Of a stretch of 64,000 nucleotides of DNA, positions 36,101 through 39,100 are shown in pieces; position 1 is the stretch's first letter; every line of letters begins with the position of its first letter. This DNA is from Amphiscolops sp. MND2022. Lineage: Eukaryota. The position numbers were made by a program. The stretch is taken from the NCBI GenBank assembly GCA_964187785.1, contig OZ076410.1:69378001-69442000 (forward strand), read 5' to 3'.

Positions 36101-39100
36101 CAATCAGCTGACGTCTTTTTTAAAACGAAAATGACCGAGGCAATCGATGAAGATACCGTTCGTTTCTTGCGATCACAGCAAAAAGTCTGGTTGAAAGTGA
36201 AAAGGAGTCTGGAAGGAGAGAATTTAGTGAATTCCAAGAAGAGGGAGTGAAGTCTCAATTAGTAATTGCAGAGATTGATGTGCCTGAGTCTGAGAAGTTC
36301 AATCAGTTGGTTTGGTCCCACCTAATTCGAAAATTTGCTGGATTTGGCGAGATTGATTCAATTGACATTGCAAAAGAGGACGATGATGATGATGGTGTTG
36401 ATGCTGTCGAACCCAACGATGATGATGACTTGTGTTATGAAAATAACTTAAATAACCAATCGTCTGGAAGTAGTGCGCGACATGATTTTGACTACCAGCA
36501 TGACCGACAGTGTAAGTTGTTTCGCTACTTGTCAATGACAAGTTAACAGTTTTGATGCTAGTATACAAACGTTTTTCTCATCTACGTTTGTCACCGGCTT
36601 ACCCGTGCGAGATGTCCGGAGTGCAACATCGATGAAGCAGTCAACGCTGCTTGCACATCATGATGGCTGTCTACACGAATATGGACAAGAACTTGATAAA
36701 CATTTCAAACTTTAAACTTAAACAATGCTTGTTATTGTTCATTTGATAAAATGTTGCTTTTAGTTGTACATTTCATCTAAAATGATGATTGTTGAACGTC
36801 GTTATTGTTGTTATTGTTTCACCCATAGGGTGCGTTGATCAATTGAAAAACAACTGGAGAGTTAACGCCAAAGTTATCAAAACAGTGCTAAATCTTTGTT
36901 TTGTCGTCTTAAATGATAGGAAGGAATCAAATTCAATGGTCCTATATATCTTTGCTACATTAAATCATTTGTAGTTCATTCTTGAGGAAAACAATCAAAA
37001 ACAGCATGATGATCCACTTAAAAACTAGCATAATGATTTCGTACGTTTATTTGATACTGATTATGCGGCATTATGCAGTTTTCATAAAACAGCATATGCG
37101 GTTTTGTTAAAGAAACAGCATAATGATCATGTACGCAGTGTAGTTTATACCTTGTATTGCATTATGCGGAAATTCAGTAGAAACAGCATGATGACTTGAG
37201 CTAAAAACAGCTTATGCGGAAATCTAGCAGAAACAGCATAATGGTTCAGATTGGAAACAGCATATGCGGAAACCCCGTGCAAACAGTATGACGTTTCATT
37301 ATAGGAATAGCATATGCGGAAATTTGACAGAAACAGTATGACGTTTTAACTTAAAAACAGTATAAAGACTCTTATTTCAGTTGTTAAAGTTATACTGAAT
37401 TATGAGGTTTTCATGAGACAGCATATACTGCATTCTGATGTAAAACAGCATAATTTGCAGGATTTTCAGTGTTACGATGTTGTAAGTCACAGTGCTATAT
37501 TTAGACCTTCCAGGAGTCTGACGCAAAATTATATTTTTAACATTTCACCCTAGAAACATGACGTTATGATGATTTGCATAAAATTGAAAGTCGTGTAACT
37601 AAAAATACCACCCAATAGAATCAGTTGGAGGAGGACCATCAAAAAATCATTCATCTAACCATCGTTCGAGAAATATCGCATATTCAGAGCAGTCACTCAT
37701 TTTCACAAACAACTCACAACCCACAAACTTCGCAGTTTCCTTCCTCTGTAAAAATAACTTCCACAGTTTCATTTTGCCAAAATATCTTTGTAATTCAAAG
37801 ATTTTCGCACCTAACATTGTTTTCATCATGGGAAACAAGAGAAATAGACGATCAAGGAGAGTAGAGTCCCAATCATTAGACAGAGACGAAAATACTTCAG
37901 GAACAAGCTTCACTCAAGGTAATGCGACTTTAGTTGGTGTTTCTGGAATTGTTAATAATGTTCTTGACAGGAACTTAGGCAGCGAACTAACAGAACCTTC
38001 TCAGATAAGCAATGAGATAGAAGTTATTTCGCAAAGACTAACAGAACAGAACAACGACAAAATGTCACAGATTGAGGAGCAACTAAATAACAAATTCGAA
38101 GAGATACTTAAGGAGATTAAAACAAACAAAAATCACATTGTAATAACTGATGAAGAGGTTGCCGAGAATAATCAGCCCGGTCCTTCTAACTATAGAAATA
38201 AGGGTCTAAGGAACAAACACGCATCAAGTACAACATCAGATAAAAATAAGAATCAGGATGACCGGTTATATCCGTCTGAAATGAGTGAATTAAGACAACC
38301 GTACACTCCTCTTGGGATTGCTGAAGACACTTTAGACGAAACCGTCATCATAAATGAAAACAGACAGGAAAGGGCCCAACATCACATGGTGACAGGACCT
38401 ACCAAGAACATCCTGAGACAAAGTTCGACAAACTCCAACACCACAAATACACAAGGACCACACGCACAAACTCCTCTCGAGCATCCTGAACCAACAAATC
38501 CCGTCAGTCAAATTGCCATAGCAATCGAAAATCTCGCACGAAGAAATACGAACCATCCCTTTTTCACCCAAAGAACACACTTACTTTCAACGGGAAATTA
38601 GAGAAAAATGAAAAATTTGAGTATTCTGAAGATCTTTTCCACACAACACTCAAAATGCAACCACACCTCACGGAGGACATAAAAATCAACCATTTTCATG
38701 CCCATTTAAGAGGACTAGCATTGAAAACTTTTAAAAACATTCAAAGAACTTCGACAACAACACTTGAAGATATATTAGTAGTCTTCGGAAGGAAATATGT
38801 TAAGCCTGAATCCAGCGCCTCTGCAAAACACAGATTTAACCGGCTCATGTTCCAACCAGAAAATCAAAAGCTACCCGATTTTCTTGAAGACCTCCAAGAA
38901 AGAGCTGAGAAAGCATTCGGCGAAGGAGCACCACAGATGATTGAGAGCCTGATATATGCAAAAATGCCCCCTCATCTCAAAAAATCAATCAACCAGGCTT
39001 ACCTCGAAAACGGTACCTATGAACAAATAGTGAAACATCTAGAACGAGAGATGGAGCTCAATGGACTCGAAGCAGATGAACCTCTAGTGAAAACTCAAAT

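What the first reader, a model, noticed from the sequence alone, without database searches (positions are those of the whole stretch)
37828..38404. Gag begins ~186 codons inside the LTR and reads through the PBS
Seen: ATG 37828 is open through the LTR end (ERAQHH|MVTGPT); E does the same (QVIYD|MVTGAT). The LTR's last A plus the PBS TGG form an in-frame ATG in both. Established: gag normally starts downstream of the PBS. Inference: two Gag isoforms, or an N-terminal extension duplicated in each LTR.
Basis: partly seen in the sequence, partly recalled or inferred. Interest (0 to 1): 0.65.

Follow-up and report, generated by a model that had tools for sequence, protein, structure and literature searches.

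The report
Gag gene starting inside the LTR
In this family of gypsy-type retrotransposons about a third of the Gag protein, including its start codon, is encoded inside the long terminal repeat, so the tRNA primer-binding site is translated; the arrangement is known in short form from yeast Ty1 but is unusually long here.

Summary
Element D is a 16.7-kb Ty3/gypsy-type LTR retrotransposon. Its LTRs are 36589-38386 and 51496-53286, 97.2% identical, with TG..CA ends and an ACGTT target duplication. An ATG at 37828 opens a frame that runs 186 codons to the last base of the 5' LTR, through the junction ATG and the primer-binding site, to a stop at 38599-38601.

This is not chance. The open run is 332 codons, against at most 148 in 2000 shuffles. 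The layout is family-wide. All 75 longer database relatives (452-629 aa, 34-91% identical) read through the junction, 73 carry MVTG, 62 start at the homologous Met (60 with Met-Gly), and 67 continue into a CCHC zinc knuckle.

The LTR-borne part evolves about three times faster than the capsid part. It keeps a conserved Met-Gly-plus-polybasic N-terminus, which fits a myristoylation-like motif, and one long predicted helix. It shows no matrix-like fold.

The "N-terminal extension" reading is supported. The "two isoforms" reading is untested, because CA+TGG forces the junction ATG. Element E shows only a short, decayed parallel with no detectable relatives. Yeast Ty1, whose PBS lies inside GAG, is the precedent. 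The transcription start, polyadenylation site and lipid modification remain inferred.

The parts
36584..36588 (.). Target-site duplication (ACGTT), left copy
   Evidence: The same 5 bases directly flank both LTRs.
36589..38386 (+). 5' LTR of element D (1798 bp), TG..CA ends
   Evidence: Local alignment to 51496-53286: 1740 of 1791 columns identical, 4 gap events.
37162..37322 (+). About 50-bp tandem repeats in the presumed U3
   Evidence: Tandem Repeats Finder; the counterpart in the 3' LTR is 52069-52270.
37361..37366 (+). TATAAA, candidate TATA box (inference only)
   Evidence: Pattern present in both LTRs (37361 and 52267). No expression data are available.
37621..37626 (+). TCAGTT, exact match to the recalled arthropod initiator consensus; candidate transcription start (inference only)
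   Evidence: Kept in both LTRs. No ATG lies between 37569 and 37828, so 37828 would be the first AUG. Strand composition becomes G-poor from about 37640. A second TCAGTT lies at 37377-37382.
37828..38385 (+). LTR-borne first 186 codons of gag (Met-Gly plus polybasic N-terminus, long helix, disordered linker)
   Evidence: shuffles; relatives; conservation; model.
38386..38388 (+). Junction ATG (last LTR base plus TG of the PBS), in frame; codon 187
   Evidence: The Met of MVTG is kept in 73 of 75 longer relatives, but the codon is forced by CA+TGG.
38387..38403 (+). Primer-binding-site-like sequence, translated as (M)VTGPT
   Evidence: It starts TGG directly after the LTR. The same first 11 bases occur in element E at 58827-58837. 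The priming tRNA was not identified: no tRNA gene lies in the window.
37828..39492 (+). gag of element D, broken: two frame changes and one in-frame stop relative to the closest intact relative P0156
   Evidence: tblastn of P0156 (555 aa) covers residues 1-555 with outer bounds 37828-39492, in two frames, with one stop inside. zf-CCHC in the ORF 38655-39431.
39715..44474 (+). pol of element D (PR, RT-RNase H, IN), broken: split over three ORFs, with at least two in-frame stops and one frame change (a minimum count, because no intact Pol relative was fetched)
   Evidence: Pfam: gag-asp_proteas (below cut-off), RVT_1, RT_RNaseH_2, Integrase_H2C2, rve, in that order.
51496..53286 (+). 3' LTR of element D (1791 bp)
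52729..53286 (+). 3' LTR copy of the gag start; not open
   Evidence: Against the 5' copy: 17 substitutions (6, 8 and 3 by codon position) and 2 gap events; stops in all three frames.
53287..53291 (.). Target-site duplication (ACGTT), right copy
58763..59053 (-). Element E: 96-aa ORF that crosses E's LTR/PBS junction (LTR end at 58837)
   Evidence: No relatives were found.

Best explanation
In this Ty3/gypsy-type family the normal gag ORF (about 550-565 aa) starts at an ATG about 185-195 codons upstream of the 3' end of the LTR.

Transcription must therefore start further upstream in the 5' LTR (inferred). The first third of Gag is encoded in the R and/or U5 part of the LTR. Ribosomes read across the LTR end and through the PBS (translated as Met-Val-Thr-Gly) into the linker, capsid and zinc-knuckle parts.

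The LTR-borne segment is a fast-evolving, mostly disordered N-terminal extension. It has two conserved features: a Met-Gly-Asn plus Arg/Lys-rich N-terminus that fits a myristoylation-plus-basic-patch membrane or RNA-binding signal (inferred from sequence only), and one long amphipathic helix (residues about 57-104) that may drive oligomerisation (inferred).

Copy D is a decayed member. Its 5' LTR copy of the segment is still open, while the rest of gag, pol and the 3' LTR copy are broken.
For: Shown:
- Exact LTR bounds, target duplication and PBS position.
- The ORF 37828-38601.
- An open run of 332 codons, against a maximum of 148 in 2000 shuffles.
- 252 cluster representatives with E <= 0.001 in 1.84 billion proteins.
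- Of 75 longer relatives (452-629 aa, 34-91% identical), 75 cross the junction, 73 hold MVTG, 62 start at the homologous Met, 60 start Met-Gly and 67 have CCHC.
- The junction Met sits at residue 184-194 in most relatives (mode 191, 21 of 73).
- 16 of 18 clusters with at least 13 members start Met-Gly and hold MVTG.
- In the 1346 distant pairs, median identity is 35% in the LTR part and 81% in the capsid part, yet the frame and length are kept.
- Residues 1-20 are a conserved island (mean share of the commonest residue 0.85, against 0.56-0.62 for residues 21-60).
- No ATG lies in the 259 bases before 37828, and the start context has A at -3 and G at +4.
- AT skew rises to the level of the coding interior from about 37790.
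- The helix 57-104 is the only part of the first 224 residues with pLDDT 64-78, has no Pro or Gly, and shows a 3.5-residue hydrophobic periodicity.

Precedent: the Ty1 PBS lies in the GAG ORF (PMC4974528, passages).
Against: - There are no RNA or protein data. The transcription start, the R/U5 boundary and the polyadenylation site are unknown.
- No AATAAA lies downstream of the TATAAA in either LTR. The single ATTAAA (38116) is not kept in the 3' LTR.
- If transcription starts just after the TATAAA at 37361, seven upstream ATGs precede 37828.
- The database relatives are machine-predicted ORFs from unnamed records. Starting at the first Met is partly how such ORFs are called, and only open copies can appear among long proteins (ascertainment).
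- No nucleotide sequences of relatives could be fetched, so no dN/dS was computed.
- The structure model is poor (mean pLDDT 47.4, pTM 0.20).
- No Pfam, PDB-sequence, fold or Atlas relative exists for residues 1-190.
- No purine-rich tract is evident just upstream of the 3' LTR.
- The myristoylation pattern used is recalled, and Gly2 is partly favoured by the G at +4 of the start context.
Confidence: 0.85

Rival explanations
1. Two Gag isoforms are made. A long one starts at 37828. A short one starts at the junction ATG or another internal AUG, through a second transcription start inside the LTR or through leaky scanning.
For: The junction Met is kept in 73 of 75 relatives. Nothing observed here excludes a second start.
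Against: The junction ATG is forced by the CA end of the LTR and the TGG of the PBS, so keeping it says nothing about initiation. Eight other ATGs (2 in frame) lie between 37828 and the junction, and 37828 has a strong context; both argue against leaky scanning reaching the junction. No promoter evidence exists for an internal start.
Confidence: 0.12
2. The frame in the LTR is an untranslated leader that is open by chance or for nucleic-acid reasons. Gag really starts at or after the PBS.
For: Most LTR elements start gag after the PBS. The LTR end and the PBS are under DNA/RNA constraints that could explain the conserved island at residues 181-200.
Against: 0 of 2000 shuffles reach the observed open run. 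75 of 75 longer relatives keep the frame open over about 190 codons at as little as 34-40% identity. The very N-terminus is the best-conserved stretch of the segment. Its length is conserved.
Confidence: 0.03
3. The apparent overlap is an artefact of mis-set LTR bounds or of a local duplication or assembly error in this copy.
For: The window is a nest of repeats and holds two runs of N elsewhere.
Against: Both LTR ends are defined to the base by TG..CA, the 5-bp target duplication and the abutting TGG. No N lies in D. The same MVTG read-through is seen in 73 of 75 independent proteins from other contigs.
Confidence: 0.02

Closest known systems
Ty1/Ty2 of Saccharomyces cerevisiae (Pseudoviridae): GAG starts in the 5' LTR and the PBS lies inside the GAG ORF
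   Same: The start codon lies upstream of the PBS inside the LTR-derived part of the RNA, and the PBS is translated (PMC4974528, passages read: the Ty1 PBS is localized in the GAG ORF; PBS at RNA nt 94-104).
   Different: In Ty1 only a few tens of bases of GAG lie upstream of the PBS; here it is 558 bases, about a third of Gag. Ty1 has the copia-type domain order, while D has PR-RT-RNase H-IN. The PBS sequence is different, and no Met-Gly/polybasic N-terminus is recalled for Ty1.
Retroviral matrix (MA) domain at the N-terminus of Gag
   Same: It occupies the same position, N-terminal to the capsid. Both have a Met-Gly N-terminus followed by a basic cluster: 59 of 62 start-aligned relatives fit the recalled myristoylation pattern. 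MA as the membrane-binding Gag domain: PMC6525542, passages.
   Different: No globular fold is predicted: residues 1-56 and 103-226 have pLDDT below 50, with one long helix between them. No MA hit was found by sequence or fold. Retroviral MA is encoded downstream of the PBS. The modification and any cleavage from the capsid are untested.
sORF2 / FAST-like proteins of MDG1-group gypsy elements (412, Stalker2, Mdg1)
   Same: An extra N-myristoylation-motif protein segment is encoded at the 5' end of an env-less insect gypsy-type element (bioRxiv 10.1101/2025.03.14.642691, passages).
   Different: [quoted passage not shown] Here the segment is fused in frame to Gag and lies inside the LTR. It has no hydrophobic stretch (maximum 19-residue Kyte-Doolittle mean 0.85).
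Ty3 Gag3 (type member of Metaviridae)
   Same: Same superfamily. Both have a capsid plus a CCHC nucleocapsid; the Ty3_capsid match is weak (E 0.002-0.012, below the Pfam cut-off).
   Different: Ty3 Gag3 is CA-spacer-NC without a long N-terminal part. Its PBS is bipartite and adjacent to the 5' UTR, not inside the ORF (PMC4974528, passages and figure legend).

Membership tests
Ty3/gypsy (Metaviridae) LTR retrotransposon | Direct LTRs with TG..CA ends and a short target-site duplication | tested here: met
   1798 and 1791 bp, 97.2% identical, ACGTT on both flanks.
Ty3/gypsy (Metaviridae) LTR retrotransposon | pol domain order PR - RT - RNase H - IN | tested here: met
   protease-like (below cut-off), RVT_1, RT_RNaseH_2, Integrase_H2C2 and rve in successive ORFs on the + strand.
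Ty3/gypsy (Metaviridae) LTR retrotransposon | Gag with a capsid domain and a CCHC zinc knuckle | tested here: met
   zf-CCHC above the cut-off. Ty3_capsid and Retrotrans_gag only below the cut-off. The best weak fold hits are capsids, none at E <= 0.001.
Ty3/gypsy (Metaviridae) LTR retrotransposon | tRNA-complementary PBS next to the 5' LTR | tested here: inconclusive
   A TGG-initial 17-mer abuts the LTR and is shared with element E. The tRNA was not identified: no tRNA gene lies in the window, and the supplementary PBS tables of PMC13524379 are closed.
Ty3/gypsy (Metaviridae) LTR retrotransposon | Polypurine tract directly upstream of the 3' LTR | tested here: not met
   The 65 bases before 51496 are not purine-rich. 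The 7 kb between IN and the 3' LTR may be rearranged.
Ty1-type layout (gag start in the LTR, PBS inside gag) | Start codon inside the 5' LTR and an ORF continuous through the PBS | tested here: met
   75 of 75 relatives.
Ty1-type layout (gag start in the LTR, PBS inside gag) | Membership of Pseudoviridae (IN upstream of RT) | tested here: not met
   IN follows RT-RNase H. D works like Ty1 in this one respect but is not a member.
Retroviral matrix (MA) domain | N-terminal Met-Gly myristoylation motif with a basic patch | tested here: met
   As a sequence pattern only: D starts MGNKRNRRSRR, and 59 of 62 start-aligned relatives fit the recalled pattern. The modification itself is not testable here.
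Retroviral matrix (MA) domain | Compact helical MA fold | tested here: not met
   The model has a disordered N-part with a single 48-residue helix (low confidence). No MA match.
Retroviral matrix (MA) domain | Release from the capsid by the element's protease | not testable with these tools
   No protein data.
MDG1-type sORF2 / FAST-like protein | [quoted passage not shown] | tested here: not met
   The segment lies inside the LTR and is fused to Gag. It has no hydrophobic stretch. Criteria taken from bioRxiv 10.1101/2025.03.14.642691, passages.

The most novel reading that the evidence does not exclude
The LTR-borne third of Gag is a matrix-like membrane-targeting and oligomerisation module (lipidated Gly2, polybasic patch, coiled coil). 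It arose in an env-less gypsy-type lineage independently of retroviral MA. Because it sits in the LTR together with the promoter, every 3' LTR and solo LTR of the family also carries a promoter plus the start of a membrane-targeting ORF that reads out into flanking host DNA.
Probability: 0.25. Interest if true: 0.75.

Novelty: new variant of a known kind. Interest (0 to 1): 0.5.

Why it matters
Annotation. Pipelines and repeat libraries split LTR elements into an LTR part and an internal part and look for gag only after the PBS. For this family that removes a third of Gag and its true N-terminus.

Constraints on the sequence. The layout places protein-coding constraint, integrase-binding LTR ends and the tRNA primer site on the same bases. 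Translation and priming therefore compete on the same RNA, as in Ty1. It also implies an unusually long R/U5, of at least 559 bases.

Gag evolution. A conserved Met-Gly/polybasic N-terminus on a gypsy-type Gag bears on how Gag proteins gained membrane-binding N-terminal modules on the way to retroviruses. It also bears on env-independent cell-to-cell spread, recently described for MDG1-group elements.

Host effects. Solo and 3' LTRs carrying a promoter plus an ORF start could create chimeric host transcripts.

Tried and rejected
- E as a second case. Searches with E's 96-aa junction ORF and with a 69-aa single-frame piece of E's gag among longer proteins found nothing (weak evidence by the tool's own note). 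A profile of the D-family N-part against all stop-to-stop segments of the window matched only D's own two LTRs; E's junction segment scored E = 7.5.
- tblastn of D's ORFs against the window found no second copy of the extension outside D.
- Function by homology. Pfam, PDB sequences, the ESM Atlas and Foldseek gave nothing for residues 1-190.
- Rfam found nothing in the window, and no tRNA gene was found.
- The bacterial promoter/terminator scan is irrelevant to a eukaryotic element and was not used.
- A 5' versus 3' LTR comparison by codon position (6, 8, 3) is uninformative, because both copies decay neutrally after insertion.
- Poly(A) signal. No canonical hexamer lies downstream of the TATAAA, so R/U5 could not be placed.
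- Literature. Six full-text searches returned no paper describing a Metaviridae gag start deep in the LTR. Exact-phrase matching and the lack of older subscription papers make this weak evidence of absence.
- Not checked: nucleotide sequences of relatives.
- Not checked: repeat-library names for the family, and the host species. All relatives are unnamed records and I did not trace them.
- Not checked: supplementary tables of PMC13524379, which list PBS/tRNA types.
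Full report
**What is in the window**

The finding lies in element D, a 16.7-kb LTR retrotransposon on the + strand. A local alignment puts its LTRs at 36589-38386 and 51496-53286, with 1740 of 1791 aligned columns identical and 4 gap events. The LTRs have TG..CA ends, and the 5-base duplication ACGTT sits on both outer flanks. A TGG-initial primer-binding-site-like 17-mer follows the 5' LTR with no spacer.

The internal ORFs carry a CCHC zinc knuckle, a protease-like domain (below cut-off), RVT_1, RT_RNaseH_2, Integrase_H2C2 and rve, in that order. That is the Ty3/gypsy order.

D is decayed:
- Relative to its closest intact relative, gag has two frame changes and one in-frame stop.
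- pol is split over three ORFs, with at least two in-frame stops and one frame change. This is a minimum count, because no intact Pol relative was fetched.
- About 7 kb of unexplained sequence lies between the integrase ORF and the 3' LTR.
- No purine-rich tract is evident before the 3' LTR.

D is nested inside an older minus-strand element, E. E's LTR pieces (33819-34595 and 58837-59625) are only 70.6% identical.

**Check of the observation**

The translation of 37828-38601 begins MGNKRNRRSRR and contains ...ERAQHH MVTGPT... as quoted.
- Bases 37828-38385 are 186 codons inside the LTR.
- Codon 187 is the ATG formed by the last LTR base and the TG of the PBS.
- The stop is at 38599-38601.

The frame is open from 37603. 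The 332-codon open run was reached by none of 2000 shuffles of 37400-38700 (mean 72, maximum 148).

For E, the quoted ...QVIYD MVTGAT... is present. Its ORF is only 96 aa, with 72 codons in the LTR, and it ends 24 codons after the junction.

The in-frame junction ATG is a by-product of an LTR ending in CA abutting a PBS that starts TGG. One of the three frames through this PBS holds a stop, so being in frame is roughly a one-in-two event.

**Is it a real coding arrangement? Evidence from relatives**

A full HMMER scan of 1.84 billion cluster representatives with the 257-aa ORF gave 252 proteins at E <= 0.001, 115 at <= 1e-10 and 15 at <= 1e-30.

Of the 154 proteins then held (the best 150 plus 4 cluster members):
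- 28 start at the homologous Met (25 with Met-Gly).
- 16 more cover the N-terminus with extra upstream residues.
- 34 cross the LTR/PBS junction.
- Most of the rest are short fragments, as expected from solo LTRs, 3' LTRs and dead copies.

A separate search restricted to longer proteins returned 75 proteins of 452-629 aa, 34-91% identical to the query. Among these 75:
- 75 cross the junction and 73 contain MVTG.
- 62 start at the homologous Met, 60 of them with Met-Gly.
- 67 go on to a CCHC knuckle.
- Of the 13 not start-aligned, 9 have extra residues upstream and 4 begin further downstream.
- The junction Met is at residue 184-194 in most (mode 191, 21 of 73).

Of the 18 clusters with at least 13 member sequences, 16 start Met-Gly and hold MVTG, and the other two still hold MVTG. 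The frame is therefore preserved in abundant, presumably young subfamilies.

All relatives are machine-called ORFs from unnamed records. They show conservation, not expression.

**Pattern of conservation**

In alignment A1 (77 rows) I measured the mean share of the commonest residue per column.

| Region | Mean share of commonest residue |
|---|---|
| LTR-borne part, overall | 0.67 |
| Rest of Gag | 0.86 |
| Residues 1-20 | 0.85 |
| Residues 61-100 | 0.72-0.74 |
| Residues 181-200 | 0.84 |

The island at 181-200 also carries the LTR end and the PBS, so it is under DNA/RNA constraint as well.

In the 1346 pairs with less than 50% identity in the N-part, median identity is 35% there and 81% in the capsid part. 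The segment therefore evolves about three times faster than the capsid, yet keeps its frame, length and N-terminus. At that divergence an untranslated stretch of this composition would be full of stops.

I could not compute dN/dS, because no nucleotide sequences of relatives were obtainable.

**What the segment looks like**

It has no Pfam, PDB-sequence or Atlas relative. It is hydrophilic: 35% Ser/Thr/Asn/Gln, 30% charged, no Cys or Trp, and no hydrophobic stretch.

An AlphaFold2 model of the intact relative P0156, built with A1, is poor overall (mean pLDDT 47.4, pTM 0.20).
- It places one long helix at residues 57-104 (pLDDT 64-78), between disordered stretches 1-56 and 103-226.
- That helix region has no Pro or Gly in the family and shows the strongest 3.5-residue hydrophobic periodicity.
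- The helical capsid region starts near residue 265. Weak Ty3_capsid and Retrotrans_gag matches cover about 247-373.
- Foldseek against the PDB gave no match at E <= 0.001. The best weak matches were capsids (PNMA2, HML2, Arc, HIV CA), and none was a matrix protein.

The N-terminus fits the recalled myristoylation pattern in 59 of 62 start-aligned relatives and is followed by an Arg/Lys cluster. Lipidation is an inference only.

**How it most likely works**

Shown: the family's gag ORF begins in the LTR and reads through the PBS.

Inferred:
- Transcription starts upstream of 37828. The LTR has a TATAAA at 37361 and two exact TCAGTT initiator-like sites (A at 37379 and 37623), all kept in the 3' LTR.
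- After 37569 there is no ATG until 37828. A start near 37623 would make 37828 the first AUG, in a good context (A at -3, G at +4).
- A start just after the TATAAA would leave seven upstream ATGs.
- No canonical poly(A) hexamer follows the TATAAA, so R and U5 cannot be placed.
- Whatever the bounds, R plus U5 must be at least 559 bases, and the same RNA bases serve as codons, LTR end and tRNA primer site.

**Comparison with known systems**

The layout works like yeast Ty1, where the PBS is inside the GAG ORF (PMC4974528, passages read). D is not a Pseudoviridae member, and its LTR-borne part is about ten times longer than Ty1's.

By position and N-terminal motif the segment resembles retroviral MA (MA role: PMC6525542, passages), but no MA fold is predicted. 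Ty3 Gag3 itself is CA-spacer-NC (PMC4974528, figure legend).

MDG1-group elements encode a myristoylation-motif FAST-like sORF2 between the LTR and gag (bioRxiv 10.1101/2025.03.14.642691, passages). Here the segment is fused to Gag, lies in the LTR and has no transmembrane helix.

Six full-text searches found no description of such a deep LTR start in Metaviridae. This is weak evidence, given the library's limits and closed supplements. Curated repeat libraries, which I could not consult, may already hold the family.

**Verdict**

The N-terminal-extension reading is supported (confidence 0.85). The isoform reading is untested. The E parallel is unsupported.

I rate it a new variant of a known kind, with interest 0.5. 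The arrangement is unusual in its extent and has clear consequences for annotation. The membrane-anchor reading would raise its interest if protein data bear it out.

Noticed in passing
window 37162-37322, 52069-52270 and 46312-46910: The presumed U3 of D holds about 50-bp tandem repeats. A 40-bp array of about 15 copies inside D, 2 kb downstream of the integrase ORF, shares short words with them. This could be a repeated factor-binding motif or a remnant of LTR-like sequence.
   Followed up: no
window 44475-51495: About 7 kb lies between D's integrase ORF and its 3' LTR. It holds two minus-strand ORFs (47206-48474, 422 aa; 48517-49191, 224 aa) and a plus-strand ORF (50713-51297, 194 aa), none with a Pfam match. 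It may be a nested insertion, a captured gene or an unknown accessory region. No env-like domain was seen.
   Followed up: partly
window 33819-34595 and 58837-59625 (minus strand): Older gypsy-type element E surrounds D. Its LTR pieces are 70.6% identical, it starts with the same 11 PBS bases, and both its LTRs have a TATATATA motif. A run of N (59638-59837) lies inside its 5' LTR and was left as it is, so E's outer LTR bound is undefined.
   Followed up: partly
window 7774-8286 (minus strand): An ORF with DUF5641 (E = 1.5e-18), a domain typical of BEL/Pao-type integrase C-termini. This suggests a BEL/Pao-like element in the 8-14 kb region with strong G-over-C skew.
   Followed up: no
window 18922-19202 and 23216-27442 (plus strand): A third gypsy-type element, with protein-level matches to D's gag, PR, RT and IN at 24-57% identity, in several pieces. 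No LTR pair was detected.
   Followed up: no
window 62023-62198 and 63826-64000: A 176-bp direct repeat, 98% identical, flanks the second run of N (63096-63578). It may be the LTRs of another element or an assembly feature.
   Followed up: no
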